Source of the DNA: an uncultured virus (IMG/VR IMGVR_UViG_3300020049_012467)
Lineage: Duplodnaviria > Heunggongvirae > Uroviricota > Caudoviricetes
Reading direction: 5' to 3' (one strand)
IMG/VR virus record: IMGVR_UViG_3300020049_012467
Length of the DNA: 60,980 nt
Each line of letters starts with the position of its first letter. Within the stretch, counting starts at the first letter, position 1. The notes under the pieces were generated by a model. It was not told the DNA's origin. It made no database searches and saw only the letters and a list, made by a program, of their open reading frames with translations. Of the stretch, positions 1 through 60,980 are shown piece by piece. The position numbers and the translations under genes were made by a program.

Positions 1-702
1 GTTAGGCCGCGCGCCGGGATCAATGGAGAAGCCGCCAATGTCAGTGATGTTGGTTGCGTCCAGCGCGTAGCGGCGTCCGTTCTGCAACTGGTATCCCTCA
101 GTCCAGCCCGTCGAGAAGCAAATGCCGCACGGCGTATTTTTTCCGCCGAGAAGCATTGCTGCGGCAGAGCGGTTGAGACGCGCGGCTTCATCGGGAGACT
201 GCATCGCGGCAAAGCTGGCGAGGTATTCGTCGACTTCCTCGCTGCCAAATTCATTGGGGGAGTCAAATTCCCCATCGGCGTCCACGTATGCGTCTTCAAG
301 CGATCCACCGTCATCCGTGAAGCGGTAGACCTTTTCCCCGTATCCTGCATCCTCTTTCGCAGCGCGTTGATCGTCGCGCAGGGAAATAATTCCAAATCTG
401 GTCGACTCGTCTTCCGCCAGATCATCCACGCTTGGCGGATCAGTGTCGGCGTTGTCCTGAATTGTGGACACTGACGTATCGCGCTGATTTTCACCATGGC
501 AGGTGCAGAACATTCCGGCGTTCTGTTTGCGCCACAGCAAAAATTCCACGCCATCCACAGCCAGCGCATTTGCGTGGCGGTCATTTGCGCGATCCACCAA
601 TTCATTGATGGCGTGCTTTGCGCCCTTGGTCAGAGAGCGGTTGTTGGCAGGCGTGGATTTGCGGCCGGAAATAGAACGACGCGAACCAAATCTGGTCTTC
701 AT
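1..702 (-). CDS. Partial ORF running off the left edge; Cys-motif protein, possibly virion neck/head-completion type
   Basis: Not in the ORF track. Read by hand: ATG at 702 with an AGGA RBS, MKTRFGSRRS...FCTCHG...TPCGICFSTGWTEGY..., open to position 1. The function guess rests on the CxC / CxxCxxTG pattern only. Confidence 0.6.
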   Translation of the reverse strand, partial: MKTRFGSRRSISGRKSTPANNRSLTKGAKHAINELVDRANDRHANALAVDGVEFLLWRKQNAGMFCTCHGENQRDTSVSTIQDNADTDPPSVDDLAEDESTRFGIISLRDDQRAAKEDAGYGEKVYRFTDDGGSLEDAYVDADGEFDSPNEFGSEEVDEYLASFAAMQSPDEAARLNRSAAAMLLGGKNTPCGICFSTGWTEGYQLQNGRRYALDATNITDIGGFSIDPGARPN

Positions 703-795
703 TTCAGCGTCCTGATTTATTTTCGCGAGCGTCCGCGAAAGATGGTAAAATATACGCTGTCCTAAATTAGTGGGTATGGTTTCCACGGAGATTGA

Positions 796-1449
796 ATGCC
801 AAGCATGTCCCCGAATGCGCTGACAGTCATGGGAATTGACGTAGGCACCGTCAATTCAGCATTTGGCGTCAGCCGCTACAACCCCGACCACAAATCATGG
901 AAGCTGATTGACGCTGGCATGATTGAGGCGACAATCAACAACCTCAAGTACGACGCTGAAGTGAAGAAGAAAAAAAAGCGCGGCAAGGCGGGGGCTGACG
1001 GAGAGTTTGACACAATCAAGCTCACGTCGTTCCGCAAGCAATTGAAGGCGCTGCTCGCTTGGCTGGACGCCATGCACGAAAAATTCGGCTTTACGGCCAT
1101 CACCATTGAGCGCTTCCAATCGCGCGGCGGCGTGTTCGGCGCCAGCATGGCGGAAATCTGCGCAGTGATTGTGGGGGTGGTAGCTTCGTGGGCTGCGCAA
1201 CACCGCGTGAAAATCATGCTGGTGACTGCGGCGGACTGGAAGAACCGCTTCACACAGGCGCAGAAGATCAAGGACATGAAGGAGTTCTATAAAAAATTCC
1301 GCGCCAAGACGTGCCCGCCTCACATGCTGGACGCCAGCCTGCTTGGAATGTACGGCGGATCGAAAATGTTCAAGCAGGAGCCATTTTCGCCATTCAGGAA
1401 TTTCCACATCGACTGGATGCGGGCGCTGTACGCCAAGCATGGTAAATAA
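796..1449 (+). CDS. RuvC-like Holliday junction resolvase
   Basis: GIDVGTVNSAFG, ITIERF, DWK, HMLDASLLG match the RNase H-fold RuvC motifs; GGAG RBS. Confidence 0.8.
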   Translation: MPSMSPNALTVMGIDVGTVNSAFGVSRYNPDHKSWKLIDAGMIEATINNLKYDAEVKKKKKRGKAGADGEFDTIKLTSFRKQLKALLAWLDAMHEKFGFTAITIERFQSRGGVFGASMAEICAVIVGVVASWAAQHRVKIMLVTAADWKNRFTQAQKIKDMKEFYKKFRAKTCPPHMLDASLLGMYGGSKMFKQEPFSPFRNFHIDWMRALYAKHGK

Positions 1450-1455
1450 TTCCGC

Positions 1456-1908
1456 ATGAAAGTGCAGCGATGCTTCTATTCGAGGATTGAATTTCTGCCG
1501 CGCTGTCCAGTCAGCGAATGCCCTGCATTTGTGCCGGGGTCCAAGACGGGGTGCGCCTATCTGGAAATTCCAGAGGACAAGACGAAAATGTCGAAAGGCG
1601 ACATGAGCCGGTTGTTCGGCGTGTCGCCCGCTACTGCAAACAAGAAATATTCCATCGGCCGTGAAGAAGTTCGGGACATGGCCCGGCTGGTGATGGAATT
1701 CACGTCCAACTCGATACCGGAGACAAACACCTTCAAACTCGAAGGCGCTTTCTTCAGGAAATTTTCAATTCCGGTAAATAGGGCTTCGCTGCGCATCGCC
1801 GCTCGCAACCGCGAAATTCGCCTGATCCTCAAGCGACGAATGAGCAAGACACAGTACATGGCAATTTTCAGGAAAGGAAAGCCACATGAACAACGCAACA
1901 AAGGTTGA
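1456..1908 (+). CDS. Hypothetical protein with N-terminal Cys cluster and HTH-like segment
   Basis: CPVSECP..GC followed by MSKGDMSRLFGVSPATANKKY. Confidence 0.55.
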   Translation: MKVQRCFYSRIEFLPRCPVSECPAFVPGSKTGCAYLEIPEDKTKMSKGDMSRLFGVSPATANKKYSIGREEVRDMARLVMEFTSNSIPETNTFKLEGAFFRKFSIPVNRASLRIAARNREIRLILKRRMSKTQYMAIFRKGKPHEQRNKG

Positions 1909-9491: not shown

Positions 9492-9668
9492 CTACGAACC
9501 TGTTGATTTCGCTAGGCATTCTTCCTGAACTCGCGCCTTGCGGTCCTTGGCGGCTTGTTCGTCTTCAAGTTCGCAGTCTGGTTCTTCGCACGCCATGCGT
9601 TCGCCACCGCCAGCGCCGCAGTGTTTGCAGTAATACGGCTTGCCGTTGAGCCAAGGTTTGTCAGACAT
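9492..9668 (-). CDS. Small Cys-rich protein (58 aa)
   Basis: Below the track cutoff. AGGAG RBS; MSDKPWLNGKPYYCKHCGAGGGERMACEEPDC... Confidence 0.6.
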   Translation of the reverse strand: MSDKPWLNGKPYYCKHCGAGGGERMACEEPDCELEDEQAAKDRKARVQEECLAKSTGS

Positions 9669-9677
9669 TATTTTCTC

Positions 9678-11867
9678 CTACGAAATCGAGACGAGCTTGA
9701 GCTTGGACTTGGACTTCTTGGACTTCTTCTTGCTGTCAGCCTTGCGCTCTTGCTTGGCCTTGTCGCGAATGTCCGTAGTAGATAGGTGCGTCCACGCGTG
9801 TTCCTTGGAAATAATTTCCACACCTAACTCGCGGGCCTTCTTGAGTTTGACGCTCATGCCTTTGGCGTCTGGCGCAAACAGCGTCGTCAGCTTGTCGTTG
9901 ATCGATCCAGTGACTACGCCGCCAGAGTCGCGAATAAAGTTCTCAATCGACTTGTCGCGGAAGCCGGTGAACGCGTAGCGCTTGCCTTTCAGAATGCCGA
10001 CAGACTTGCGGCCTTCGGTTTCCTTGATTGCGCGCTCGCAGTACGTTCCCAGCATTGCCCACTCAGCGAAGAAATTTTTCAACTGCATCGCAAAGCAGTC
10101 TGCGGCGAGTCGACCAACACCTTCGGCGCGCTGCGCCTTTTGCGACAGCGCACGGATTTCAGGATCGCCGTATCCCTTCTCGTCGAGAGTAGCTGGCCCG
10201 AAATATTTGAACAGCTTGTCCACGCCAATCTCGTCTAGGATTGCCTGCAAACGCGTCTCGCCAAGGCCGAGCTTCACGGAGCGAAACACGCCGCTGGCGT
10301 GCATGAGCTTTGCCATCGAGGCTTCGGACAGAGCTTTCCTGAGAGCGTTGCGGAATTTTTTCAGAGACACGTCGCCCCAGCCGGGCTGGCCTTTCAGCTT
10401 CTTCGACTTGCGCATGAGTTCGCCAACTGTAGTGACGCGAAGCTGCTTGCACGCGTTGGCGACAAGCGTCTTGCCAACGTTGTCAGTGTCGAGTTGCGCG
10501 AAAAAATCAGCCGGTGAGTTTGGCTTGCCTGCGCAGATTGGGCAATACAGGTCAACGCCAGTGTCCGTCCACTCAAGCGGCGCGTCGTGCTTCTTGCAGC
10601 GCTTGGGCAGCTTGGCCTTCTCGCCAGACTTCATTTCGACGCGGACAATGCGAGGGATTACGTCGCCAGAGCGAACGACAGTGACAAGCGCGCCTTCAGC
10701 GACATTATTTTCCTTCACGTACTTTGCGTTGTCCACGTAGACGTTGCGAACCTGCACGCCGCGAAACGTCGCCGGATACTTGAGGCGCACAACTGGCTTC
10801 CACAGGCCACGCGGCGTTGCGTTCCACATCACCTGACCGACTTCCAGCGTGTGCGCGTCCTGATCGACAGCATCCAGCTTGATGGCGCGGCTCCACTTTG
10901 GATTGAGGCCGTTGGAATCGTAACCCAATTTTTCCGGTTCTTCGGCGTTGGTGGAAATCACCATGCCGTCGACTTCGTACGGATGCGAGTCCACAAGGTT
11001 CTTGATGTTCTGGCGTGCGCGGCCCTTCCACGCTTTCGAACTCTCCATCGTAGTGATGTTGAAGTGCGGGATGGTGAAGCCCATTTTTTCCAGCACCTTG
11101 ATACGCACGCTCAACGGAGCCTTGTCGGCGCGAATGGAAGATGCGCCCATCGGAACGTCAGGAATGTCGGCAAGGCTCTTGGGCGGATCGAACGTCATGT
11201 CCAGAGCAATGAACTCTGCGAGCTTGAGCGTTTCGCGGCGAACAAGATTGCTCTCTTTCGCGCCGACGCATCCGACAAGCATGTTGCGGGCGTTGACGTA
11301 CTCTCGGGATTTTTTCTCTTTGGCGTGAAGCATGCTGGCGGCGCGCAACGTGGCAAAGTTCATCTTGGACAGGATGAACTCGCCGCGTACGTAGAGCTTG
11401 CAGCCGCCACGTGGGAAAATATATCCGGGGATGGTGGGGTTGCCTTTGAGCGTAGCCGTCACGTCGCGACCGGTCACACCGTCGCCGCGCGTAATGATGG
11501 CTTCCAGATTGCCGTCAGCCGCATAGACGAGCATCAGCGACATGCCGTCGAGTTTCGGCGTAACGAAGAAGCCAGACTTGCGAAATTTTTCCGGAAGCGA
11601 CTTTGCCCATTTGCGGATTTCGCTCGGGCGCACCTTGTCGAGCGATCCAACTGGAACCGGCAGCTTCACCTTGGAGCCAAGTTCGACTTCAGCAGCCTTG
11701 GAGCCGACAACGCCAGCGAAGAATTTTTTATCCATGACGCGAAGTTCGGCAACCATGGCGTCAAACTCTGCGTCAGACCAAGGCGACTTGCCTTTGGTGT
11801 AGAGGAACTGAGCAACGCGAACGCGGTTGGCAGTCCTGAATTGCTTGGCGATGGCGAACGCGGTCAT
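9678..11867 (-). CDS. ligA: NAD-dependent DNA ligase with C-terminal BRCT
   Basis: SLDK, KLDG, TRGDG, VRGE, DGMV, RSGDVIP and BRCT (FTGFRD...GG) motifs. Confidence 0.95.
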   Translation of the reverse strand: MTAFAIAKQFRTANRVRVAQFLYTKGKSPWSDAEFDAMVAELRVMDKKFFAGVVGSKAAEVELGSKVKLPVPVGSLDKVRPSEIRKWAKSLPEKFRKSGFFVTPKLDGMSLMLVYAADGNLEAIITRGDGVTGRDVTATLKGNPTIPGYIFPRGGCKLYVRGEFILSKMNFATLRAASMLHAKEKKSREYVNARNMLVGCVGAKESNLVRRETLKLAEFIALDMTFDPPKSLADIPDVPMGASSIRADKAPLSVRIKVLEKMGFTIPHFNITTMESSKAWKGRARQNIKNLVDSHPYEVDGMVISTNAEEPEKLGYDSNGLNPKWSRAIKLDAVDQDAHTLEVGQVMWNATPRGLWKPVVRLKYPATFRGVQVRNVYVDNAKYVKENNVAEGALVTVVRSGDVIPRIVRVEMKSGEKAKLPKRCKKHDAPLEWTDTGVDLYCPICAGKPNSPADFFAQLDTDNVGKTLVANACKQLRVTTVGELMRKSKKLKGQPGWGDVSLKKFRNALRKALSEASMAKLMHASGVFRSVKLGLGETRLQAILDEIGVDKLFKYFGPATLDEKGYGDPEIRALSQKAQRAEGVGRLAADCFAMQLKNFFAEWAMLGTYCERAIKETEGRKSVGILKGKRYAFTGFRDKSIENFIRDSGGVVTGSINDKLTTLFAPDAKGMSVKLKKARELGVEIISKEHAWTHLSTTDIRDKAKQERKADSKKKSKKSKSKLKLVSIS

Positions 11868-11901
11868 GGAAGCCTCGAATTATTTCTTGAATGCAGACAC
11901 G

Positions 11902-17863: not shown

Positions 17864-18543
17864 TTTTTCACTTTCTCGGCAAAGTCTTCTGCGGCGTCTT
17901 CAAACCGCTTGCGGATCGCCTTCTTGCTTAGGGCCGCAGAAGGAAGCGGAGCATCGACGATGAACGGCGTGGCGATGTTTTCAATATTGTCGCCACGATA
18001 GTCCGTGAAGGTCGGCACAGCGGTCCGGATGGCCCACTGAGATACTTTACCCATGGCGAATATGGGGAGTGACCAGTAATCTAGCGTCTGGACAAGGCGA
18101 AATATTTCTCCTTCGTATTCGCGTTTGCAATACTGCGCCATGACAAGACGCGACGGCGGCGCCAGCGGCGTCGGACCGACTATCGGATTGAGCCAATCCT
18201 GCGTCAAAGGCTGACCTTTCGGAGGCTTGGGCTTCGTGGTCGTGAAAAACCCCTCCACAATTTTCTCAGGCTTGGGAATGCGAAACGCCGAAGCCGCGAG
18301 GATTTCGTAGTCGGCAATGCCAAGGTTGAAAAACGTGTCATAGACAAATTTTCCAGCGTGGTCGCTCAGCAGCTTTCCAGCGTCAGCCACGGTCGGAGCC
18401 GGAACGACGATAGCGAGGGACGCGACTTCAACGTGAGACGGAAGCCTGTAGTCGGTGAAGCCGGGGCGTTGTCGAAACGCCAGTTCGTGTTTCCAGTCCA
18501 TGAATTTTTTCTCCTGAAAAGCCGTCATGCGAGGAAACAGCAT
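17755..18543 (-). CDS. Uracil-DNA-glycosylase-fold (family 4-like) protein, divergent
   Basis: AIVVPAP...AGKFV...LGI; YC...EI...PIFAMGKVS follow the UDG4 layout, but the GE(A/G)PG motif is degenerate. Start may be 18528 or 18501. Confidence 0.5.
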   Translation of the reverse strand: MLFPRMTAFQEKKFMDWKHELAFRQRPGFTDYRLPSHVEVASLAIVVPAPTVADAGKLLSDHAGKFVYDTFFNLGIADYEILAASAFRIPKPEKIVEGFFTTTKPKPPKGQPLTQDWLNPIVGPTPLAPPSRLVMAQYCKREYEGEIFRLVQTLDYWSLPIFAMGKVSQWAIRTAVPTFTDYRGDNIENIATPFIVDAPLPSAALSKKAIRKRFEDAAEDFAEKVKKWRSANSSSPTRKVPAAANRAAEVLVRARTKAKKKK

Positions 18544-18579
18544 TTTACCATAGTCGCGATGCAGACGGAAGTGAAAAGG

Positions 18580-19170
18580 CTGGCAGCGGCTAGAAGCCTT
18601 GGTCTACAACGTCTAAGAGAGCTACGAGCGTAGCGAAGCGAAGCGAGACTACAGCCTCGGAGCGAAGCGGAGAGGCTGATCAGTGCTTTAGACTTCGGCC
18701 TGAAATCGCTTCCGCGTTTCCACTGGTCCGCTTCGCCATGTCTGAAACTCAAACTTTGCCCTGTTGAGGCCATCTAGAGGGGGTCTAGAGGCGTCTACGG
18801 GCGCTTTCGCGCCAATCTGACCTGTGGAAAATATTCCAGATTTCCACGACTTTCTTTGTTGGAACCCCATAGGGGTTCTTTTTTCTTTGTACTAGAATAT
18901 CCGTGTTAGCTGCTGAACCCCTTAATCCATTCCTTAACTCCAAACCTCTGATGGTTTTCCTTGATGGTCCTTTCCGAATTTTTTCTTTCGGCTTCTTCCG
19001 TCCCATGTTTCGATGGGTCCGTGTATAGGCGCAAAGCCGCTCGGAATCCGGTCACATTTTTGGGGGCGGGGGTTTACCCGGTTCTCACGGCCACCTTCAA
19101 ACCCCTTTATTTCAAGCCTTCCTGCGTGACTACGCGACAGGGCTAAATACGACAGACTTTGCATTGGAGT
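18580..19170. other. Divergent intergenic region, candidate replication origin/regulatory region
   Basis: Strand switch; GCGAAGC repeats, TCTAGAGG repeats, pyrimidine-rich AT-richer tract; no convincing gene. Confidence 0.4.
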
Positions 19171-19174
19171 CGTC

Positions 19175-20398
19175 GTGGTCACTCAACAGCAATTCGCCCG
19201 TCGCGCCAAGATACGAGCCAAGGTCAGGTCGGTCGAGTGTCCCGAGTGTGGCGCTGCGCCCGGCGAACACTGCCGAGGCAAGACGAAAAATATCGAGCGC
19301 TGCCACCGCCAACGTCATCACCATTTGCAACAAGTCAAAGTCACGGAAGCTGCAACCGCAGAGAATGAGGAAGTCATGACTGCCACCGCCATCGATCCCA
19401 GCAACGACTGGTCACTGAAGTACAGACCGACAAGCATGGCAGAGTTTGCTGCGCCGGAATATATTGCGCTTCACGTCGAGACAATCCTGAAGAAGCCGCC
19501 CAACTCAATTCTCATCGACGGAGAATTCGGAAACGGCAAGACGACGCTCGCGCGCATCATTGCTCACAGCATGACGGATCACGCGTCCGACATTATGGAA
19601 ATGAACGCGGCCAGCGACACCGGCATCGACAACGTGAGAAATATTGTCAAGACGGCTGCGTTCCGTCCCAAAGGCAAGCGCCGCATCTTCATCATCGATG
19701 AAGCGCACGGCCTCACGCATCAGGCCATCAACGCTCTGCTCAAACCTGTGGAAGAACCGCCGGGACAAGTGACGTGGATTTTTTGCTCGTCTGAAAGCAG
19801 CAAGATCAACCGCGCCCTCATTACGCGCGCACGTTCCATTACGCTGCCCGCTCCGGACAAGAAAGCCGTTCGCTCGCGTCTGGTCGCGATTGGCATGGCT
19901 GAAGGCGTCACAAAATATCCAGCCATCGCCAGCATGGACAAGGCTGACCGCAAAGCCGTGGTTGTTGCAATGGCTGCGCTCGCTTCACGCGCTCAAGGCT
20001 TCCGCTCTGCCGTCAACAGTTTCCAGACGCTTGCCGACATTGTGTCGTCAATGAAAAAATCCAAGCAGTCTGCCGTTCTCGCCACACTCAAGGAAGCTGG
20101 CGAGACGATGAAGGCGTTTGGCGATGCGTCGGGCGCCGATCTGATCAAGCTGGTCAACACTGACATGCTGGCGGCGGCGTCGCAGTTGTTGCGTTCACGC
20201 GGGCTGGACACGTTCAACCAGATTTATTTCGCCGCTCGCGACTCCATTCAGGACGGCCACAAGAGCGCAAAGGCTGCAATGCTCATGCGCTGGTGTCTTG
20301 AAGCCCAGCATTGGGCCGCTACATCGAACGGCGATCCATCAGTCTATCTCGCATCCAAATTCGCCAGCTACACGCTTGAAGTCAACAAGAAGAAATAA
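19175..20398 (+). CDS. Clamp-loader ATPase (DnaX/RFC-like) with in-frame N-terminal Zn finger
   Basis: KYRP, GEFGNGKTT, EMNAASDTGID, IIDEAH, ALLKPVEEPP; second start with RBS at 19376. Confidence 0.9.
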   Translation: MVTQQQFARRAKIRAKVRSVECPECGAAPGEHCRGKTKNIERCHRQRHHHLQQVKVTEAATAENEEVMTATAIDPSNDWSLKYRPTSMAEFAAPEYIALHVETILKKPPNSILIDGEFGNGKTTLARIIAHSMTDHASDIMEMNAASDTGIDNVRNIVKTAAFRPKGKRRIFIIDEAHGLTHQAINALLKPVEEPPGQVTWIFCSSESSKINRALITRARSITLPAPDKKAVRSRLVAIGMAEGVTKYPAIASMDKADRKAVVVAMAALASRAQGFRSAVNSFQTLADIVSSMKKSKQSAVLATLKEAGETMKAFGDASGADLIKLVNTDMLAAASQLLRSRGLDTFNQIYFAARDSIQDGHKSAKAAMLMRWCLEAQHWAATSNGDPSVYLASKFASYTLEVNKKK

Positions 20399-20412
20399 TC
20401 AGGAGAACTCCC

Positions 20413-25252: not shown

Positions 25253-27550
25253 ATGACCAAGAAAAATATCGAGCGTGAAGAAGAACTCGCGCTGCGCCGC
25301 TCCAAATCAGGAGGCGCGAAACTCAAGCCTGCTGAAATGGATGCGCGCAAGGCCATCATTTTGATGAAGCGGGCGCTCGAAAGTGGCAAGGTCATTCCCG
25401 GCGTCAAGTTCACCAAGGAAGGTGTTCACGTCGAAAGCAGCAAGCACAGTCGCGGTATCCGCGAGGCTCGTTCCAACAAGCGCGGAAAATATGATCGTCG
25501 TGACAAGAACATGATGGGAGGCGGAAAGTCCATCAGCGTCATGACGAACTGGTTCAAGTACAAGAAAATCGATCTTCACGTCACGGTCGCTTTCCACTAC
25601 GGCACAAACAACTACTACAGCGGCGGCGCGGGTCACAGCTTTACCTCAAAGAAAAAATGGCCAATGTATCGCATCTACGTTGGCGGCAGAAATTCATGGG
25701 GTCAGTCCAACTTTGCTCCAGTGCCCAAGGAATTCGATCCAAAGGCAATGCTGGAAAATATCAAGAAGACTATGGACAACGCAATCAAGCAAACGGCGTT
25801 GGTCAACCAGCGCAACGCCGCCGCTGAAAAGCTTCGCAACATGGGTGGCAATACTGAGCTTTCAGCCATAGACCGCCTCGAAGAACTCGCGGCCAAAGGC
25901 GGCGCCAAACAGCCGCGCAAGGCTGCGCTGGAATATGGCGGCGTCATCAAGAATATTTTCCAGCCTACCAAGGCTCCGGCAATCATGAAGCGAATGCTTA
26001 CCTTCATGACGCCGCTGTCGCAGGACAAGCTTTTCTCGCTCATTCGCGCCATGGCGAAGAATGAAACGCTGAAGAAGACGCGCAAGCTGTCGTCCAAAGC
26101 TTCCATGGATGCAATCCATATCCAGACGCGCACAAACATTCTGTTCATGATTGCCGCCAGCGAAGCAGGCTTCCTGCCGCCGCTCAAGCTGCACATGATG
26201 CTGCGCTATCTGAAAAAAATCCACGTCCTTGACTTCAAGCCTATCTGGACTTCGATCAAGGGAGACATTCGCATTCCGACCAACTCCAAGCTGCATCCAC
26301 AGCCGGGATATTTCGGAATGGACTCGCGTCAATTCAAACGCTTCTTTGGCGCAAAGGTCGCCGCCAAGAAACGCGCAACGACGCCAGCGCAGAAAGCCGC
26401 CTTGAAGAAGGGTCAGGAAAAATTGGCGTCCATGCCTCCGGAAGCAAAGGTGCGCAAGCCTGCCGCAGAGCGTGGTCCGCTCAAGCAATCGCTGCGTGAA
26501 ATGCAGGACGCAGAAGCACGCAAGGGCGCTGCGGCTTGGCAAGGCAAGCTCAAGGAAGCCATGGGAGCAAACCCGGAAGCCGTCGCAAAGTGGACGAAGT
26601 TCTTCGGTGACGTTCGCGACGGTAAGATCAATATTTCCAAAACTGAACCGTACATGGCTGCACGCAAGCAGTTCAACAACCAACTGACGCGCGGCGACGC
26701 AGTTGTAGTCCTGAAGCGCTTCTCTCCGCTTGACGACGGGAAGCGACACAAAGGCAACATGGGAATTTTCAACGCCATCTGGACGGTGCTGAAAGACTAT
26801 CTGGATTCCAAGCCGGTGCATCCCGCCGCCGAGCCGAAAGACGGCTCAGTGAGCCCGGTGCGCAGCAAGAACCTCAACCCGACCACGAACATTGGCGGCA
26901 TCAAAGAGAAAAAATTGCCCAAGGAACGTGAAGCGGTTGTGCCGTCACCGATGCAGCCGCCTCCGCCGCAGACCAATGAAATTTTCGAAGACAGGGACGC
27001 TGATCAAGACCTTGATGAAGATGGTGTCATTGATACGGCATCCGCCAAGGAAATCGAGACTGCCTTGGCGAAAGGACCGCCCGCGTTGCGCAAGATTGCC
27101 GTGCGGGCTCAAAAGCTTCGCGCCAAACACGGCGACAAGTACGACTTCCGCATCAACCGCAACAAGACGACCAAGAAATATTCCATCTACCGCCGTCCGA
27201 AAGGTCAGGCCGATGGACGCTGGGTTCTCATACCAGAGTCGGAAACCGCAGCCTACAACCCTTCCGACACTGACAAAGCAGCCCAAGCAACGCTACGGTA
27301 CAATAAAGAAAATATTGCAGCGATCCGGAAAGGAAAGCCAAAGAAGTGGGCGATCCGTGAAACGAAAACTTCGAAAGGCTGGATCGTCAAGGTCAAGCTG
27401 TTTGCCGACGTGAAAAGGAAGGGTGAAGCTGGTGGGTGGAAGCAGATATACCCGACCGCGCACACGCAGGTCTTTGGAGAAAAAGCCTCGACTGCTTCCG
27501 CCGTTGCAGATCGCATCAAGTCAGCCATGGCACAAGCGAAGAAAAAATGA
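25253..27550 (+). CDS. Large Lys-rich modular protein, putative internal virion protein
   Basis: Highly basic; E-x-A linker motifs; start MTKKNIE after GGGGA. Confidence 0.7.
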   Translation: MTKKNIEREEELALRRSKSGGAKLKPAEMDARKAIILMKRALESGKVIPGVKFTKEGVHVESSKHSRGIREARSNKRGKYDRRDKNMMGGGKSISVMTNWFKYKKIDLHVTVAFHYGTNNYYSGGAGHSFTSKKKWPMYRIYVGGRNSWGQSNFAPVPKEFDPKAMLENIKKTMDNAIKQTALVNQRNAAAEKLRNMGGNTELSAIDRLEELAAKGGAKQPRKAALEYGGVIKNIFQPTKAPAIMKRMLTFMTPLSQDKLFSLIRAMAKNETLKKTRKLSSKASMDAIHIQTRTNILFMIAASEAGFLPPLKLHMMLRYLKKIHVLDFKPIWTSIKGDIRIPTNSKLHPQPGYFGMDSRQFKRFFGAKVAAKKRATTPAQKAALKKGQEKLASMPPEAKVRKPAAERGPLKQSLREMQDAEARKGAAAWQGKLKEAMGANPEAVAKWTKFFGDVRDGKINISKTEPYMAARKQFNNQLTRGDAVVVLKRFSPLDDGKRHKGNMGIFNAIWTVLKDYLDSKPVHPAAEPKDGSVSPVRSKNLNPTTNIGGIKEKKLPKEREAVVPSPMQPPPPQTNEIFEDRDADQDLDEDGVIDTASAKEIETALAKGPPALRKIAVRAQKLRAKHGDKYDFRINRNKTTKKYSIYRRPKGQADGRWVLIPESETAAYNPSDTDKAAQATLRYNKENIAAIRKGKPKKWAIRETKTSKGWIVKVKLFADVKRKGEAGGWKQIYPTAHTQVFGEKASTASAVADRIKSAMAQAKKK

Positions 27551-33655: not shown

Positions 33656-34768
33656 ATGAGAAAACTGGCACTGGCCGTATCGGCCATTGTCTTGGCCGCG
33701 CTGGCTCCCGCCGCGTGGGCTCAAGAACCTGAAGCCCCTCCCACGTTGACTGAAGCCGTCACTGAAGCGGTGGAAGAAAAAATCGACGAAGTTGTTGCCG
33801 AAGAAGTTCTGGCGGCAGACGTTCTCGATGTGATTGAAGACCTTGTGTCTGAAGCCATCGAAGCCGCAGACGCCGAGGAACTGGTCAGCGATGCAGTCGA
33901 AACCATCGTCACCACCATTGTCGAAGAATCGGCAGCCCCGCAGGAAGAAAAAATCGAAGCCGCAATCGAAACGGCTGACGAAGCTACTGCTGGCGATGAA
34001 GTCGTTCTGGACAACGCCGACGTACTCGGATGGATTGAGGACGTTGTCGAACTGGCGGAGGAAACTGCCGCTGATGTGACTTCGGAAGAAGTGATCGAAG
34101 CAGTCGAGGAAAATATTTCCGAAGAACTGCCTGCTGAAACCATCGACGCCGCCGTGCCGGAAATCACGGCCGACGTTGTTGAGACTGTGACCAGCGAAGA
34201 AACGGTCGCTGAAATCGTCGCTGAACTGACGGAAGAACTGCCCAACGTCCCGACCGAAACCATTGAAGCTGCCGTTGAAGCGGAAATTTCCGAACAGACG
34301 CCCAGCATTGAAGGCGAAGTGAAAGACGAAGTGGCCGACGCCGTTGAAGAAACGGTTGAAGACGCTGTTGCCGAAGCTGCTCCCATCACGGAAGCCGCCG
34401 CCGACATTATGACCGATCCGGTCGTTGCCGACACTGTTGAGGAAATTATTTCCGAAACGGCGCCGGAAGTTGTCGCGGACGTGATTGAAGAAGCCGCCGA
34501 AGAAGCCGAAGTCGTCGTTGAGTCGACCGAACCGGCTGCCCCGGCTGCCCCGGCTGCTGAAGCTCCTGCCGCTGAAGCCCCCGCTGCTGAGCCGACGCCT
34601 GCGCCGCAACCGGAAGCCCCGGCTGCCGCTGCGCCTTCGACGGAAACTCTGCAAGCTGTCCTCGACAACCTGCGCGGTGCGCTGGAAGCCATGGGCATCT
34701 TCGCGGAAAAAATCACGGTCAAGGAACTCGTGATCAACAAGCTGACGTTCAACGACGTTACCTTCTAG
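33656..34768 (+). CDS. Secreted, extremely Glu/Ala/Val-rich protein
   Basis: Sec signal MRKLALAVSAIVLAALAPAAWA, then acidic helical repeats and a PAA linker. Confidence 0.8.
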   Translation: MRKLALAVSAIVLAALAPAAWAQEPEAPPTLTEAVTEAVEEKIDEVVAEEVLAADVLDVIEDLVSEAIEAADAEELVSDAVETIVTTIVEESAAPQEEKIEAAIETADEATAGDEVVLDNADVLGWIEDVVELAEETAADVTSEEVIEAVEENISEELPAETIDAAVPEITADVVETVTSEETVAEIVAELTEELPNVPTETIEAAVEAEISEQTPSIEGEVKDEVADAVEETVEDAVAEAAPITEAAADIMTDPVVADTVEEIISETAPEVVADVIEEAAEEAEVVVESTEPAAPAAPAAEAPAAEAPAAEPTPAPQPEAPAAAAPSTETLQAVLDNLRGALEAMGIFAEKITVKELVINKLTFNDVTF

Positions 34769-34801
34769 GCTAACGCCGACCAAACTGACGAACTGAAGCG
34801 A

Positions 34802-34830
34802 GCGGCCACCGGGAAACTGGTGGCCGTTTT
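34802..34830 (+). terminator. Intrinsic terminator
   Basis: GCGGCCACC-GGGAAACT-GGTGGCCGTTTT. Confidence 0.75.
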
Positions 34831-34977
34831 GCTTTGTCCAAACGTGGACAAATATTTCTTCTGAAAATCACCCCAAAAACGAACACAGCGCAGAAAGCCT
34901 TATAGAATGGGCCTTCTGAACGAGTCGCTAAATCAATGGGCGAAGGAAGACCCTTCGTAATCTCATGGAGAACTGCA

Positions 34978-38351: not shown

Positions 38352-38368
38352 TCAGGAAGGAACCTGCA

Positions 38369-38809: not shown

Positions 38810-38852
38810 CGTAATTTTTTCTCAACCTCCAAACCAAACAAGGAAACCTCCA

Positions 38853-49838: not shown

Positions 49839-50176
49839 CCGAATACGACAGCGTAAAAATTGGATCGGTGTGGAAGCACAAGGGCGGGGCGCTCTACATT
49901 GTCGTCGCCATCACCAACACTCTGGAACCGCCAAAGGAAAAATTTCCCCCGACATTCGTGTACGCCAACCTGTCCAGCATGGCGGCGCGAATGGTCGTGG
50001 AGGATGAAACGCTCATTCCGGAACAAGGCCCGGCCAAGATTGAGTTCTTCTCGGCGCAGGCCGACGACTGGAAGCGCCGCATGACTGAAGTCGCGGTGAA
50101 GGACACGCTGTACGCAACAATCATCCTCGGCAGGATGACGGGACTGGCGCGGATACTCAGGGGCGAAAGACTGTGA
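49832..50176 (+). CDS. Hypothetical protein (DUF1653-like start)
   Basis: GSVWKHKGGALYIVVAITN. Confidence 0.55.
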   Translation: MLTEYDSVKIGSVWKHKGGALYIVVAITNTLEPPKEKFPPTFVYANLSSMAARMVVEDETLIPEQGPAKIEFFSAQADDWKRRMTEVAVKDTLYATIILGRMTGLARILRGERL

Positions 50177-50940
50177 ATTATTTTCTCGACTACGACAAGA
50201 CGCCCGCTGACATTTCGTGGCTGCCGCGCAAGGATGAGCCTTGGGAAGTCGTAAAGACGTTTGCGCACTTCATCGAGAAAGCGATGATCGTTCCGCCGAC
50301 GTTTATTTCCTTTGGAGAAATGCAGAACGCCGAATCCCTGTCGTGCGTCGGATGGTACATCGATTTCTGCGAGCGCAAGAACCTCAAGTTTCCGCTCTAC
50401 GCCATTCACACGCCAGTCAGCACGCTTCGCCGCAACATTGAAAGCGCAATCGTCCGCGCCGGTAAGGACAACATTATCCGTTTCGAAGTCGTTGACGGCG
50501 AGGAAGAAAAAATCGAACCAGAAGCGCCTGCTGAAAAACCAATCGTTACGCCTCAGACGGTCGATGACGAGCGCATTGCAATCATGAAGCAGCGCAGCAA
50601 GGCGCTCGCCAATCAGCGCGAACAGGATGAACGCCGCGCCAACTGGCAACGGTCGCAGGAAAAACAGCTTTCGCAGAAGCGCCAATCTGCACGCGGCGTC
50701 ACTGAAGAAACGACTGTGGAAATATCTGACGAGCCTCGCAGGCGCGGTCGGCCTCCCGCCGTGCTCGATGTGTGCTGGTCTACAGTGCAATTCCTAGAAG
50801 ACGCTGACAGCGGCGCGTTGTCCCGTCGATCTGGCCCGTTCTACGCAATCAACCTGCAAGGTGAAAGCCTTGGCGAAGTCATCGTCGGGAAAAAAATCAC
50901 TCTCCCGGCTGGCACGTTCTACATTGCGAGGGAGCCATGA
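50173..50940 (+). CDS. Protein with degenerate cyclic-phosphate-processing receiver-like N-terminal domain
   Basis: FLDYDKTP...W.VVK....F.......P.FISF...V.W.IDFC......P.YAIHT......NI. Confidence 0.5.
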   Translation: MNYFLDYDKTPADISWLPRKDEPWEVVKTFAHFIEKAMIVPPTFISFGEMQNAESLSCVGWYIDFCERKNLKFPLYAIHTPVSTLRRNIESAIVRAGKDNIIRFEVVDGEEEKIEPEAPAEKPIVTPQTVDDERIAIMKQRSKALANQREQDERRANWQRSQEKQLSQKRQSARGVTEETTVEISDEPRRRGRPPAVLDVCWSTVQFLEDADSGALSRRSGPFYAINLQGESLGEVIVGKKITLPAGTFYIAREP

Positions 50941-52228: not shown

Positions 52229-52343
52229 AAGCAATTTCCGACGCGCGTTCCTTAACGTATGTAAAATATTGGCAAGAATCGTCACGTTTTGGCCTGACAC
52301 CACTAATTCATGGCGACGCTTACCAACCGAAAAGGAACCGTCA

Positions 52344-53366: not shown

Positions 53367-53461
53367 CGGACTCAACCAGACCCTACAGAAGCACCGGCCC
53401 GGCGAAAGCTTGGCCGGTGTTTTCGTTTCCGGTAAATATTCCGCTCAGCAAAGGCGGATGC

Positions 53462-56663: not shown

Positions 56664-56692
56664 TTGGCGTTCCCGCTGGAGTATGGTAAAAT
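56664..56692 (+). promoter_or_regulatory. Promoter TTGGCG-N17-TAAAAT with extended TG
   Basis: Exact 17-nt spacer; TATGGTAAAAT. Confidence 0.6.
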
Positions 56693-56733
56693 AGACTTGC
56701 TGCAATCCGCAGCCGACATGAGAGGGCTTGAAC

Positions 56734-58858: not shown

Positions 58859-59460
58859 GTCAGATCAGGGTCGCAGTCACAGGCGGACGGGATTATGGTC
58901 GCTATGATCCGACCGTTCCCGCCAAGCTGAAGAAGAAGCGCAGCCGCGAGTTTGATTACGTCTGGAAATATCTGGACAGGTTCAAACAGCGCAACGCGCA
59001 TCACGAACTGCGATTCTGTGTAGGGGATGCGACCGGAGTCGACTCTGTCGTGCGCGACTGGTGCATCGAGAATGGCGTTCGCTGTAAACGCTTCAAGGCC
59101 AATTGGAAAAAATTCGGCAAGTCCGCAGGCCCACGACGCAACCGCCGCATGCTGGACAAGTTCAAGCCGACAATGCTTCTGGAATTCCCCGGCGGGTCTG
59201 GAACGGCCAACTGCGTGGCTGAAGCCCGCAAGCGCGAAATCATTGTCTATCGGCAGCCGGGCATTATGCCTGACCACGCCAAACGTGAAGCCAAGAAGAA
59301 AAAATTGAAGAAGGGAAAGAAGAATGCCGCACTCGACAAAGGAAGTTCACACAAGCGAAGCCGAGGGGGAGGCGCTGAAACTGCCGCTCGCAAAGCCGCA
59401 GCAGTACATGTGCCGAAAACACGGCAACATCGGAAGAAATTATTTCAGGTTCGAGACTGA
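58855..59460 (+). CDS. DUF2493 / YspA-SLOG family protein
   Basis: VAVTGGRDY...GDATGVD...ANWKKFGKSAGPRRN..M...FPGGSGTANC. Confidence 0.85.
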   Translation: MSQIRVAVTGGRDYGRYDPTVPAKLKKKRSREFDYVWKYLDRFKQRNAHHELRFCVGDATGVDSVVRDWCIENGVRCKRFKANWKKFGKSAGPRRNRRMLDKFKPTMLLEFPGGSGTANCVAEARKREIIVYRQPGIMPDHAKREAKKKKLKKGKKNAALDKGSSHKRSRGGGAETAARKAAAVHVPKTRQHRKKLFQVRD

Positions 59461-59584
59461 CGTTGGCTACACAGACTACAAGCAGACGCTTCATTGCGGT
59501 TTCTGCTTTCGCGAAATGCTGGACGCCAACTGCGAACGTGCAATTCCAATCCCTGAGCCTGTGGAACCGTACGTCGGCGGCTGA
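59324..59584 (+). CDS. Small Cys/His protein overlapping the SLOG tail
   Basis: CRKHG...CGFC; AAGGG RBS. Confidence 0.5.
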   Translation: MPHSTKEVHTSEAEGEALKLPLAKPQQYMCRKHGNIGRNYFRFETDVGYTDYKQTLHCGFCFREMLDANCERAIPIPEPVEPYVGG

Positions 59585-59623
59585 ACCCTAATTTGCCCGT
59601 AAAGCGGCTTGTCAGGAAAATTC

Positions 59624-60980
59624 ATGTCTATCAAACCATTTTCTGAAGTTGGGCGTCTAGCAGCCATGGCGACGGGGGCTTCCCTGATCGCCATGGCTGC
59701 TTCTGGCGTTTTGGCCCCAATGGCCGATAGTGGTGGAATTATTTCTGGCACCAATCAAGGCGACACATCGACGCTTGATCAGCTTTTGGAAAAATTGCCG
59801 GAAACAGCCGCTCTCTACGACCCCTCCGACCTCACGAGTCTGTACCAGTCCCGCACGGGCGGAGCGAACGCGACGCCCGGCTCTGTCGTCGGCATCATGC
59901 TCGACACGAGAAAAATGGGCGGACAGACGGCGGCGGACTTCATTGCGGAGCAGCCGGAGAAACTTTCTGGTTCTTGGAGCATGTCAACAAGCGGAGGGAC
60001 CGCAACGGCGACGGAAAGTCCCTCTGGCACACTCAACCTCACAGGGGATGGCACAAACAGTGGTCTGGCCGACAAGTCATTCACCAGTGTCGCAAATAGC
60101 TGGTACATAATTACTTTCACAGTCGGAACGGCGCAGATTATTTTCAGAGCCGGAACGTCTCAAGGCGGTTCGCAACTTCTGACGGGCGCAGCATACAACG
60201 TTGGCTCCAACACTGTATTAATTAGAGCGACTACCACGACAACGTGGTTACGATTCAACCGGCAGACAGCAAGCCTGAGCGTTGCGTCTGGTGTATCAGT
60301 CAAAGAAATTCCCGGTTACCACGCCGTTGCTCCATCAGATGCAGCGCGTTCGGTATGCGCGTGCGAACCGGCAGGTGGACGCCGAAATATTCTGATTTAT
60401 TCTGAAGATTTTAGTAATGCGGCGTGGATAAAATCGCGGGCAACTATAGTGCCCAACGCTACTGCGGCCCCTGACGGTACAATCACTGCAACAAAACTGG
60501 TTGAGGATAGTTCTGTTGGCTTAACACATCGTGTTTATCAATCAGTCGATAAACCAACGTCATCTGCAATTACCTACACCGCTTCGATCTATGCTAAAGC
60601 GGCTGAGCGTAATTTCATATCTGTAAAGCTCTCAGACAACACGGAGACTGATCAGGTCCGGGTTGCCGTGAACCTGACAACCGGCGAACTCTCGGCAATT
60701 GGCGGAAGTGGTTTCACAGCAGCCTCCGCAACAGCAGAGGCGTTTGAAAACGGCTGGTGGCGTATCCGCCTGACAGCCACTTCCGATAGTGACTCAAAAA
60801 TTGTATTGTTCGCGCAAATTGCGGATACCTTGTCGTCATCCGGCGCATACAACGGTGACGGCGCATCTGGAATCTACATTTGGGGCGGTCAAAACGAAAC
60901 TGGTTCCGCCGCAACTGCTTATCAGAAAGTCGTTTCGTCCGATCAAGTCACTGAAGCAGAAGTCAACACCAAATATTTCT
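59624..60980 (+). CDS. Partial fibre/spike (receptor-binding or head-fibre) protein running off the right edge
   Basis: Not in the track. Read by hand: MSIKPFSE...LYDPSDLTSLYQ...VGIMLD...RNILIYSEDFSNAAW...APDGT.TA.KL...YTASIYAKA...NGWWRI...GIYIWGGQ.ETGS.ATAYQ. Confidence 0.8.
   Translation, partial: MSIKPFSEVGRLAAMATGASLIAMAASGVLAPMADSGGIISGTNQGDTSTLDQLLEKLPETAALYDPSDLTSLYQSRTGGANATPGSVVGIMLDTRKMGGQTAADFIAEQPEKLSGSWSMSTSGGTATATESPSGTLNLTGDGTNSGLADKSFTSVANSWYIITFTVGTAQIIFRAGTSQGGSQLLTGAAYNVGSNTVLIRATTTTTWLRFNRQTASLSVASGVSVKEIPGYHAVAPSDAARSVCACEPAGGRRNILIYSEDFSNAAWIKSRATIVPNATAAPDGTITATKLVEDSSVGLTHRVYQSVDKPTSSAITYTASIYAKAAERNFISVKLSDNTETDQVRVAVNLTTGELSAIGGSGFTAASATAEAFENGWWRIRLTATSDSDSKIVLFAQIADTLSSSGAYNGDGASGIYIWGGQNETGSAATAYQKVVSSDQVTEAEVNTKYF

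What the first reader, a model, noticed from the sequence alone, without database searches (positions are those of the whole stretch)
1..60980. Window-wide, quasi-periodic A-then-T tracts (~140-170 bp spacing) written through coding sequence: a candidate DNA-organisation code
Seen: in GC-rich DNA, isolated 7-10 nt A/T runs with A-first/T-last polarity (AAAATATT, AAATTTTT, AAAAAATT, AATTATTT) recur at strikingly even intervals, regardless of gene strand or frame. Hand count in ligA, run starts: 9667, 9809, 9933 (only 6 nt), 10072, 10201, 10354, 10501, 10704, 10927, 11083, 11309, 11416, 11583, 11722, 11878. Gaps are 107-226 bp (mean ~158), with none very short or very long, unlike random placement. 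The Glu-rich gene shows the same: 33777, 33947, 34110, 34284, 34443, 34706, 34851. So does nrdJ, with looser spacing. The tracts use AAA/AAT/TAT/ATT/TTT codons where these genes otherwise prefer AAG/AAC/TAC/ATC/TTC. In the poly-acidic gene a ~318 bp gap (12237 to 12555) has a residual AATT midway (~12390). Established: AnTn tracts have a narrow minor groove and bend DNA, and are read by AT-hook/H-NS/Lsr2/MucR-type proteins; ~150-170 bp resembles a nucleosome repeat. Inference: a selected layer superimposed on the genetic code that phases a DNA-wrapping or condensing protein, or guides packaging/ejection. I do not recognise this as a described phage feature.
Basis: partly seen in the sequence, partly recalled or inferred. 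Interest (0 to 1): 0.92.

Follow-up and report, generated by a model that had tools for sequence, protein, structure and literature searches.

The report
Evenly spaced AT tracts in phage
A phage genome from wastewater carries a short A-then-T tract about every 170 bases, written through its genes by codon choice; it looks like built-in docking sites for a DNA-organising protein, and I found no earlier description of it.

Summary
The window (GC about 55%) holds 338 A/T-only runs of 7 or more bases. Run lengths fall into two groups: 5-6 nt runs are depleted and 7-9 nt runs are enriched. The consensus is G-AAAWWTTT-C, A first and T last, with few TpA steps. Median gap is 171 bp and CV is 0.45. 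Only 5% of gaps are under 80 bp, and each 5 kb holds 26-29 tracts. Synonymous-codon shuffles give 194±9 tracts and CV 0.93. Picking at random among 1125 tract-capable coding sites gives CV 0.92. Thirty-four A....T hexamers sit in the long gaps, giving 372 elements with mean spacing 164 bp and CV 0.38. The array ignores strand, frame, gene borders and start codons. It shows no 10-11 bp phasing and no long-range lattice. Three named phage loci, 81 bacterial loci and 76 of 77 viral loci lack it. One distant relative (L204) shows a denser W-run excess without polarity.

The best reading (about 0.4) is a selected array of narrow-minor-groove docking sites for an architectural protein. Candidate readers in the window are a protein with a conserved AT-hook (50173-50940) and three large basic proteins, two of them with lysine/alanine-rich, H1-like tails. 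The mechanism is untested, and no DNA from close relatives could be obtained.

The parts
1..60980 (.). Genome-wide array: 338 A/T-only runs of 7 or more bases plus 34 isolated A....T hexamers. Consensus G-AAAWWTTT-C. About one element per 164-180 bp.
9667..11885 (.). Sub-array inside ligA (gene on the - strand): 14 tracts with gaps of 107-226 bp
   Evidence: ligA domains
33777..34857 (.). Sub-array inside the Glu-rich secreted-looking gene: 6 tracts plus the hexamer AAATTT at 34284, which fills a 325-bp gap
17864..19324 (.). Stretch between the leftward and rightward gene blocks, where my gene caller placed no gene. The array continues here with 7 tracts, 5 of them with G..C flanks.
50173..50940 (+). 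Candidate reader P0138. It has a confidently modelled N-terminal alpha/beta domain, a long helix, a disordered linker holding RRRGRPP (an AT-hook core) and a small C-terminal beta domain.
   Evidence: (R191, G192, R193 and P195 are invariant in 4 of 4 aligned homologues)
25253..27550 (+). Large basic protein (765 aa, pI 10.2) with no family match; first of three consecutive basic proteins
27547..30909 (+). Large basic protein P0001 (1120 aa) with the H1-like tail AKKAAKKVAKKVAKKKSPAK; candidate reader or condenser
30894..32495 (+). Basic protein P0003 (533 aa, pI 10.1) with two Lys/Ala/Pro-rich tails (KKPAKKAAKKAAKKKSPAKKPVKKP...); candidate reader or condenser

Best explanation
The tracts are a selected, genome-wide array of docking sites with a narrow minor groove. 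Each site is 7-9 A/T pairs ordered A-first/T-last, flanked 5'-G and 3'-C, with few TpA steps. The array is produced mainly by turning on the A/T-ending codons at about one in four of the coding sites that could hold a tract, and keeping G/C-ending codons at the rest.

A protein that reads groove shape rather than base identity most likely binds each site. Each bound unit would keep its neighbours at least about 60-80 bp away. The phage DNA would then be organised, condensed or topologically managed in units of about 165-180 bp.

Candidate readers encoded in the window are the AT-hook protein at 50173-50940 and the three large basic proteins at 25253-32495; two of the three carry Lys/Ala/Pro tails like those of histone H1. 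A host nucleoid protein that clamps A/T runs, such as GapR, is an alternative reader.

Shown: the array, its statistics, its independence from coding, and the existence of the candidate genes. Inferred: that any protein binds the tracts, which protein it is, and what the binding achieves.
For: (1) The tracts form a distinct sequence class. Run lengths are bimodal. For runs of 7-9 nt, 5'G is 0.73-0.89, 3'C is 0.77-0.85 and the TpA-step frequency is 0.07-0.15; 7-8 nt runs start with A and end with T in at least 90% of cases. Short runs in the same window and long runs in control phages lack these properties. The G..C flanks persist outside genes, in 44 of 80 tracts.

(2) The core is degenerate (W) while the AnTn order is strict. 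AnTm tracts are described as rigid, with the narrowest minor groove of any DNA sequence (passages read in PMC8476142). AT-hooks insert an RGR core into the minor groove of A/T DNA (passages read in PMC11354804).

(3) Spacing behaves like excluded volume combined with density control. The pair correlation is 0.09-0.17 below 75 bp. Within genes the minimum gap is 60 bp and CV is 0.36 for 195 gaps. Twelve 5-kb bins each hold 26-29 tracts. Count variance lies below that of gap-shuffled controls. A....T hexamers sit specifically in the long gaps (p=1e-8).

(4) The signal lies at the DNA level. Tracts occur in all three codon frames (99/109/50). Density is equal in the leftward and rightward gene blocks (5.36 vs 5.51 per kb). 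There is no phasing to start codons, and spacing continues across gene borders.

(5) The window encodes proteins with the matching chemistry. P0138 has an RGR.P core that is invariant in 4 of 4 aligned homologues at 33-59% identity, and the core lies in a disordered linker. Two adjacent basic proteins carry AKKA/KKSPAKK tails.

(6) A clamp protein with a comparable preference exists. GapR binds 10 or more consecutive A/T pairs without selecting their order, with Kd about 12 nM (abstract and passages of PMC7498317).
Against: No binding has been shown, and none can be shown with these tools. No close relative's DNA could be obtained, so conservation of the spacing is untested. Nothing ties the candidate proteins to the tracts except their chemistry. 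The three basic proteins match no family, solved structure or atlas cluster. There is no 10-11 bp rotational signal and no helical phasing of gaps, which argues against a histone-style wrap. Only 22 of 338 runs reach the 10 bp that GapR prefers, and an alphaproteobacterial host is only hinted at by a GTA-type spike-fibre domain. The distant relative L204 has a W-run excess without polarity or wide spacing, so context-dependent codon bias can produce part of such a pattern without a site-specific reader. The strain variants listed carry no power: 0 of 40 fall in tracts against 1.7 expected.
Confidence: 0.4

Rival explanations
1. Replication signals. The tracts are easily opened sites, or primase start sites, that serve either strand because AnTn reads the same on both. 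This would give short, uniform lagging-strand fragments or frequent restart points in otherwise GC-rich DNA.
For: The dyad form offers a T-run followed by C on both strands. The window encodes a Toprim/DnaG-like primase, a clamp loader, ligA, SbcCD and a RuvC-like resolvase. Density is uniform across the window.
Against: From my recall, not from any call: known phage and bacterial primases use trinucleotide sites and need nothing as frequent as one site per 170 bp. A priming role predicts no sharp exclusion below 60-80 bp and no need for AnTn order or low TpA content. PaBG has a syntenic replication module and lacks the array.
Confidence: 0.12
2. Self-marking or counter-defence. The tracts mark the DNA as the phage's own, or blunt a host system. 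They might halt a translocating nuclease from either side, serve as targets of a phage modification enzyme, or be A/T sites shaped so that TpA-preferring silencers cannot nucleate and spread.
For: The genome is under strong defence pressure: 20 of 64 palindromic hexamers are absent, and a Tad2-like anti-Thoeris gene is present. H-NS, MvaT and Rok prefer TpA steps and dislike A-tracts (PMC8476142), which matches the low-TpA design. A DNA methyltransferase-like gene lies at 53417-54142.
Against: Avoiding silencers explains the form of the tracts but not why there are about three times more than in control phages or shuffles. Most other viral loci avoid W runs altogether (75 of 77 have z of +2 or less). 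No known defence or anti-defence system uses a site every 170 bp with an exclusion zone. No modification data are available.
Confidence: 0.12
3. Protein-free DNA mechanics. Rigid, slightly bent AnTn segments at even density tune stiffness or bending so that any part of a headful-packaged genome can be spooled and ejected.
For: Density is extremely even (Fano factor 0.08 at 5 kb). The AnTn order selects for the rigid, narrow-groove form (PMC8476142).
Against: Isolated 8-bp tracts without helical phasing do not add up to curvature. Phages of similar GC content and size manage without them. Mechanics alone gives no reason for the G..C flanks or the sharp exclusion distance.
Confidence: 0.1
4. An RNA-level signal. 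Read as GAAAWWUUUC in the messages, the tracts would be ribonuclease entry sites or translational pause sites spaced about 60 codons apart.
For: Between 258 and 260 of the 338 tracts lie in coding sequence, and they use rarer A/T-ending codons. On the sense strand, A-rich forms dominate (AAAAAAT 33 vs ATTTTTT 4).
Against: Tracts occur at equal or higher density between genes and keep their flanks there. They occupy all three frames, and there is no phasing to start codons. Spacing runs on across gene borders and across the switch of strand. The sense-strand A excess fits the higher frequency of Lys and Glu relative to Phe.
Confidence: 0.08
5. No function. The pattern is a by-product of neighbour-dependent mutation or codon-context bias that clusters A/T-ending codons.
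For: L204, a distant relative, has a strong W-run excess over synonymous shuffles (567 vs 449±10) with mild regularity (CV 0.67 vs 0.85) and no defined motif.
Against: A bias of this kind cannot produce bimodal run lengths, fewer W>=5 runs than shuffles alongside more W>=7 runs (z -5.3 and +11.5), a 75-bp exclusion zone, or hexamers placed in the long gaps.
Confidence: 0.05

Closest known systems
Helically phased A-tracts (10-11 bp periodicity) in prokaryotic and phage genomes
   Same: Short A/T runs used as a structural layer on top of coding sequence. The subject appears in PMC3431218 and PMC3940949, of which I saw only the search listing and abstracts.
   Different: Here the spacing is about 165-180 bp rather than 10-11 bp. 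There is no helical phasing. The tracts are isolated 7-9 bp units rather than clusters.
DNA-encoded nucleosome arrays in eukaryotic coding regions (for example Tetrahymena, PMC4617968; search listing and abstract only)
   Same: A regularly spaced sequence signal, about 150-200 bp apart, written through genes.
   Different: This is a phage of bacteria. No histone-fold gene was seen in the window, and the flanks carry no 10-bp WW/SS rotational signal. The element is a discrete near-palindromic motif of about 10 bp.
AT-hook proteins (HMGA type) and their A/T minor-groove sites
   Same: The sites are contiguous A/T with a narrow groove. P0138 carries a conserved RGR.P core flanked by basic residues in a disordered linker (PMC11354804).
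   Different: No AT-hook protein is known to me to have a genome-wide, evenly spaced set of sites (recalled; searches found none). Binding by P0138 is untested.
GapR, the A/T-run clamp of alphaproteobacteria
   Same: It prefers consecutive A/T pairs regardless of their order, and it is a symmetric tetramer around the DNA (PMC7498317).
   Different: GapR's best sites are 10 bp or longer, and only 22 of 338 runs reach that length. No GapR gene was found in the window. The host is unknown.
Xenogeneic silencers H-NS, MvaT, Rok and Lsr2
   Same: They read A/T-rich DNA through the minor groove. Lsr2 favours AATT and A-tracts (PMC8476142).
   Different: H-NS, MvaT and Rok prefer TpA steps and dislike A-tracts. 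They also need long A/T-rich stretches in order to spread (this last point is recalled). The tracts here are poor in TpA, short and isolated.
Over-represented genomic words (Chi, uptake sequences, KOPS); named from recall
   Same: Short motifs kept at high and fairly even density across genes.
   Different: Those words are asymmetric, strand-oriented and base-specific. This element is dyad-symmetric, degenerate in its core, and excludes near neighbours.

Membership tests
Helically phased A-tract curvature signal | A/T runs recur with the 10-11 bp helical period | tested here: not met
   The mean phase vector of gaps modulo 10, 10.5 and 11 is 0.02-0.08. WW profiles around tracts, and the masked autocorrelation, show only the 3-bp coding period.
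Nucleosome or histone positioning sequence | 10-bp WW/SS rotational signal across a wrapped footprint | tested here: not met
   Fourier amplitude at 10-11 bp is 0.002-0.004, against 0.011 at 3 bp.
Nucleosome or histone positioning sequence | A histone-fold (or other wrapping) protein is encoded or supplied | tested here: inconclusive
   Pfam scans of 20, 59 and 15 ORFs found no histone, HU/IHF, H-NS, Lsr2 or MucR family. However, the window is only 60,980 of a 122,980-base contig, and the host is unknown.
AT-hook binding site | A contiguous A/T stretch with a narrow minor groove (AnTn, few TpA steps) | tested here: met
   Runs of 7-8 nt start with A in 91-94% of cases and end with T in 90-93%. 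TpA steps are 0.07-0.10, against 0.19-0.30 in long runs of control phages.
AT-hook binding site | Bound by a protein with a GRP/RGRP core | not testable with these tools
   P0138 has RRRGRPP, with R-G-R-x-P invariant in 4 of 4 homologues. Binding requires a bench test.
GapR-type clamp site | 10 or more consecutive A/T pairs | tested here: not met
   22 of 338 runs are 10 bp or longer. The modal lengths are 7-8.
H-NS/MvaT/Rok silencer nucleation site | TpA-rich, flexible A/T DNA within an extended A/T-rich region | tested here: not met
   TTTAAA, TTATAA and TATATA are each absent. TpA steps are few. The flanks return to background A/T content of 0.41-0.47 within 5-10 bp.
Chi/KOPS/uptake-type oriented word | An asymmetric word with a strand bias tied to replication or transcription | tested here: not met
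   The consensus is dyad-symmetric. Density and form are the same in both gene blocks.
Promoter or terminator elements | Placed at gene borders and oriented with the gene | tested here: not met
   258-260 of 338 tracts lie inside genes. The histogram of distance from start codons is flat. The T-first A/T words that look like promoters (GGTAAAATATA) form a separate, intergenic class.

The most novel reading that the evidence does not exclude
This phage programs its own chromatin in its sequence. An AT-hook or H1-like protein would sit on each G-AnTn-C tract and fold or compact the genome into units of about 165-180 bp, with the positions fixed by codon choice. That would be the first sequence-encoded, genome-wide nucleoprotein array in a bacteriophage. 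L204 hints that related viruses carry other versions of such a code.
Probability: 0.3. Interest if true: 0.95.

Novelty: categorically new. Interest (0 to 1): 0.86.

Why it matters
If the array is a protein-positioning code, a virus of bacteria can organise its DNA in regular units specified by the sequence itself. That idea has so far been tied to eukaryotic chromatin. It would also be a clean example of a second, structural message written through protein-coding DNA by synonymous codons alone. About 23% of the possible sites are switched on and the rest are switched off, with no detectable cost in amino-acid sequence.

The question is directly testable with synthetic DNA and recombinant proteins, even though the host is uncultured. 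Whatever the mechanism turns out to be, the simple statistic used here could be used to screen viral metagenomes for more such codes. That statistic is the number of W runs and the CV of their gaps, each compared with synonymous shuffles. It picked out 2 of 78 sequences tested.

Tried and rejected
Relatives' DNA. The 1120-aa protein has one homologue, P0002 (59% identity over aligned columns), known from Logan only. Scans with this protein or its alignment found nothing in IMG/VR, JGI metagenomes or GTDB genomes. ligA and nrdJ used alone in IMG/VR found nothing. P0009 (nrdJ 61% identical) gave nothing in IMG/VR and only a 2.5-kb relative at 39% identity in JGI.

Pattern scan. It returned mostly A/T-rich genomes, and none resembled the window.

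Sequencing runs. No RNA holder was listed. Contigs from four wastewater, activated-sludge and digester runs were laid on 20001-40000. None of the 40 listed variants (36 more were not shown) falls in a tract, against 1.7 expected, so the test has no power.

Tract codons in P0001 compared with P0002. 19 of 25 aligned all-W codons are identical, against a 60% baseline. The sample is too small to conclude anything.

Amino-acid-level adaptation. None was detected: 1125 capable sites against 1111±19 in permuted proteins, and 2 capable-free stretches over 300 bp against 2.0±1.0.

HNH genes. There are three, with GC 0.46-0.49. One has canonical spacing and two carry T-first runs. Three genes are too few to judge.

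Identity of the big basic proteins. Pfam, PHROGs, NCBIfam, PDB sequence search and the ESM Atlas gave nothing usable. A search for homologues of P0003 found only the protein itself.

P0138 fold search. Only weak receiver-like matches to the N-terminal domain were found (best E 0.075).

MTase-like gene. It has no solved relative.

Literature. Six full-text searches turned up no description of evenly spaced A/T tracts in a phage genome.

Complex prediction was not used. It cannot take DNA, and I make no protein-protein claim.

Full report
WHAT THE WINDOW IS

The window is 60,980 bases of GC about 55% (0.52-0.575 per 2 kb). It comes from a contig of 122,980 bases. It matches nothing in 50,697 phage records, either as DNA or with its largest protein.

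The genes are those of a large tailed phage:
- NAD-dependent ligase, clamp loader, SbcC and SbcD
- a DnaG-like Toprim protein and a RuvC-like resolvase
- a Cas4-like nuclease, dTMP kinase and B12-dependent nrdJ
- a DNA methyltransferase-like protein, a Tad2-like protein and three HNH endonucleases
- a GTA-type head spike-fibre domain

The replication module shares seven genes, at 25-31% identity, with a 50-kb stretch of Pseudomonas phage PaBG that holds the same kinds of replication and repair genes. Near-identical DNA occurs in contigs of wastewater, activated-sludge and anaerobic-digester runs from five studies, so the sequence is not a one-off assembly artefact.

A/T-only (W) runs of 7 or more bases number 338. 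Run lengths are bimodal against a Markov-1 model:

| Run length | Observed | Expected |
|---|---|---|
| 5 nt | 157 | 352 |
| 6 nt | 73 | 159 |
| 7 nt | 148 | 72.5 |
| 8 nt | 124 | 32.7 |
| 9 nt | 44 | 14.5 |

The tracts therefore form a class of their own. Their consensus is G-AAAWWTTT-C. The base before a tract is G in 78% of cases and the base after is C in 80%. The first tract base is A in 90% and the last is T in 90%. In short runs of the same window, and in long runs of two control phages, these figures are about 0.45-0.7. TpA steps are two to three times more frequent in the control phages' long runs. TTTAAA, TTATAA and TATATA are absent altogether, while AATATT is 8.3-fold and AAATTT 3.8-fold over expectation.

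SPACING

- Mean gap is 180.5 bp, median 171, CV 0.448.
- 5.3% of gaps are under 80 bp.
- A KS test against the exponential gives p=7e-29, and the best gamma shape is 4.7.
- The pair correlation is 0.09-0.17 below 75 bp and rises to 1.28 at 150-175 bp. It is flat beyond that.
- No periodogram peak stands out (power 3.6 at 172 bp; top value 5.6 at 11.6 bp), and gaps have no helical phase.

The pattern is therefore "regular with exclusion", not a lattice.

Density is strikingly even. Twelve successive 5-kb bins hold 26-29 tracts each. The count variance is below that of the same gaps in shuffled order: the Fano factor is 0.08 at 5 kb, and 1-4% of shuffles reach it at 1-10 kb.

The 34 isolated A....T hexamers behave as weak members of the array. 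Their median distance to the nearest tract is 125 bp, against 47 bp for random points. Only 15% lie within 60 bp of a tract, against 63% for random points (p=1e-8). With them included, the array has 372 elements, mean spacing 164 bp, CV 0.38 and a longest gap of 368 bp.

CONTROLS

- Synonymous shuffles within 76 home-called genes (83% of the window) give 194±9 tracts (maximum 218 of 200 shuffles) and CV 0.93±0.06 (minimum 0.78).
- The proteins offer 1125 sites where synonymous codons could make a tract, and 260 are used. Random choices among those sites give CV 0.92±0.05 (minimum 0.79 of 500) and 31% of gaps under 80 bp.
- Permuting the amino acids changes neither the number of capable sites nor the number of long capable-free stretches. 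The code is therefore written by codon choice, not by protein change.
- Outside tracts the genes prefer AAG (73%), AAC (81%), TTC (71%) and TAC (75%), and GC3 is 0.69.
- Three named phage loci of GC 55-59% have 0.44-0.60 tracts per kb and CV 0.92-1.25.
- In 81 bacterial nrdJ loci, no ratio of W7-9 to W5-6 runs exceeds 0.6 (the window's ratio is 1.37), and no CV is below 0.77.
- Of 77 viral nrdJ loci of 8 kb or more put through the same shuffle test, 76 have a tract-count z between -8.6 and +2.1. The window's first 22 kb has z +11.5, with CV z -6.8. For W>=5 runs the window's z is -5.3, which is the all-or-none signature.

A DNA-LEVEL SIGNAL

Tracts occupy all three codon frames (99/109/50). 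The G..C flanks persist outside genes in 44 of 80 tracts. Density is 5.36 per kb in the leftward gene block and 5.51 per kb in the rightward block. Within-gene gaps (n=195) have mean 177 bp, CV 0.36 and minimum 60 bp. Pairs of tracts in neighbouring genes are never closer than 80 bp (n=41). Tract positions show no phasing to start codons. Most gaps under 80 bp (13 of 18) lie in intergenic or boundary stretches; several of these involve T-first, promoter-like words such as GGTAAAATATA. The flanks carry only the 3-bp coding period and no 10-11 bp signal.

A SECOND, DIFFERENT CASE

L204 is 22 kb of a 97.7-kb IMG/VR contig. It has GC 54% and an nrdJ 47% identical to the window's, and it shares three genes with the window. 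It has 567 W>=5 runs against 449±10 in shuffles, and CV 0.67 against 0.85. Its runs occur about every 39 bp, are rich in TpA and have only weak polarity. This shows that clustering of A/T-ending codons occurs elsewhere in this broad viral group. It also shows that the window's wide, polar, all-or-none version is a distinct state.

MECHANISM

The combination that needs explaining has three parts:
- a core that is degenerate in base identity but strict in A-to-T order and poor in TpA steps
- dyad symmetry
- a hard minimum distance between sites, together with tightly held density

AnTm tracts are described as rigid, with the narrowest minor groove of any DNA sequence. H-NS, MvaT and Rok prefer TpA steps and dislike A-tracts (PMC8476142, passages read). 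AT-hooks place an RGR core deep in the minor groove of A/T DNA (PMC11354804, passages read). GapR clamps 10 or more consecutive A/T pairs regardless of their order (PMC7498317, abstract and passages).

I therefore read the tracts as shape-read docking sites for an architectural protein, with the exclusion distance set by the size of the bound unit or by the smallest loop between units.

The window encodes suitable chemistry:
- P0138 (50173-50940) carries RRRGRPP. The R-G-R-x-P core is invariant in all four aligned homologues, at 33-59% identity. It lies in a disordered linker between a long helix and a small beta domain.
- Three consecutive proteins of 765, 1120 and 533 aa have pI about 10. 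The second and third carry tails such as AKKAAKKVAKKVAKKKSPAK and KKPAKKAAKKAAKKKSPAKKPVKKP. From recall, such Lys/Ala/Pro tails and SPKK-type motifs of histone H1 favour A/T minor grooves.

All of this is inference. No binding was tested or could be tested here. I put the reading at about 0.4.

The rivals are priming or unwinding sites (0.12), self-marking or counter-defence (0.12), protein-free mechanics (0.10), an RNA-level signal (0.08) and a neutral codon-context by-product (0.05). Each is set out in its own section with its refuting test.

COMPARISON WITH WHAT IS KNOWN

This is not the known 10-11 bp A-tract periodicity (tested, not met). It is not a nucleosome-positioning code: there is no rotational signal, and no histone gene is visible in the window. 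It is not a silencer nucleation site, because the TpA preference and the extended A/T context are both absent. It is not an oriented word of the Chi or uptake-sequence kind, because it is dyad-symmetric.

It works most like an array of AT-hook or clamp sites, but I do not file it as a member of any described system. Six full-text searches found no report of evenly spaced A/T tracts in a phage genome. Phage-encoded histones have been described (PMC11390915, passages read), but without any sequence code.

LIMITS

- Only half of the contig is visible.
- No DNA of a close relative could be fetched, so conservation of the spacing is unknown.
- My gene calls are home-made. They missed at least the three HNH genes, which means some tracts counted as intergenic are in fact coding.
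- The host is unknown.

Noticed in passing
window 1-60980: Extreme avoidance of palindromes. Twenty of 64 palindromic hexamers are absent, among them GGATCC, CTGCAG, CCCGGG, GAGCTC, GGTACC and CAGCTG. GCCGGC, GACGTC, CGATCG and TGGCCA are 8-30 times under expectation. This points to heavy restriction pressure and probably unmodified DNA.
   Followed up: no
L204 (IMGVR_UViG_3300003324_001329, bases 66450-88723 of 97,738): A distant relative (nrdJ 47% identical, GC 54%) has an A/T run of 5 or more bases about every 39 bp. That is well above synonymous shuffles (567 vs 449±10), and the spacing is under-dispersed (CV 0.67 vs 0.85). The runs have no clear motif or polarity. It was the only one of 77 viral loci besides the window to show this.
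   Followed up: partly
window 30340-30390 and 31016-31060: The Lys/Ala-coding repeats (AAGAAGGCC...) at the end of the 1120-aa gene and the start of the 533-aa gene attract contigs of many other organisms when runs are laid on the window. Depth there is 146, against about 4-29 elsewhere, with many loose ends and false joints. These are low-complexity tails shared in kind with other genomes.
   Followed up: no
window 27547-30909 (P0001 residues about 595-603 and 777-785): The peptide DRTEEVA occurs twice, each time before a change of domain. The motif A-x-NL-A/T-AL recurs three times in P0001 and once in P0003. These may be processing sites or repeated modules of a polyprotein. In the homologue P0002, about 180 residues between the two DRTEEVA copies are missing.
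   Followed up: no
window 744-754, 25022-25032, 56685-56695, 52260-52270: GGTAAAATATA occurs twice exactly, and near copies occur elsewhere, shortly upstream of rightward genes. In total there are 15 matches with up to 2 mismatches, against 3.3 expected. It may be a phage promoter word, and it is distinct from the A-first tracts.
   Followed up: partly
window 796-23309 compared with L119 (PaBG 110000-159999): Seven replication and repair genes are shared with jumbo phage PaBG at 25-31% identity: Cas4-like nuclease, primase, resolvase, clamp loader, SbcC, SbcD and one more. PaBG has no tract array.
   Followed up: partly
window 41806-42375 (-), 48427-49008 (+), 54146-54781 (+): Three HNH endonuclease genes, one with an AP2 domain, have GC 0.46-0.49, below the window mean. 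Two of them carry T-first or A-last A/T runs that break the tract rule, as might be expected of recent arrivals.
   Followed up: partly
window 11951-12748 (-), 16053-16565 (-), 33656-34768 (+), 36756-37625 (+), 40832-41701 (+), 52344-53366 (+): There is an unusual number of very acidic proteins (pI about 4.1-4.2, with up to 33% Asp+Glu) beside the very basic ones. The protein at 33656-34768 has a signal-peptide-like start.
   Followed up: no
window 55132-55458, 38853-40250, 59609-60979: A Tad2-like anti-Thoeris domain, a 465-aa pentapeptide-repeat protein, and a GTA-type head spike-fibre domain (E 2e-34). The last is a faint hint of an alphaproteobacterial host.
   Followed up: no
proteins P0007-P0125 (nrdJ homologues): The window's nrdJ belongs to a metagenomic clade with members at 50-76% identity. 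Many of these sit on contigs of 50-350 kb, and several are split by inteins, to judge from their extra Pfam families and lengths of 1050-1490 aa. GTDB genomes reach only 39% identity or less.
   Followed up: partly
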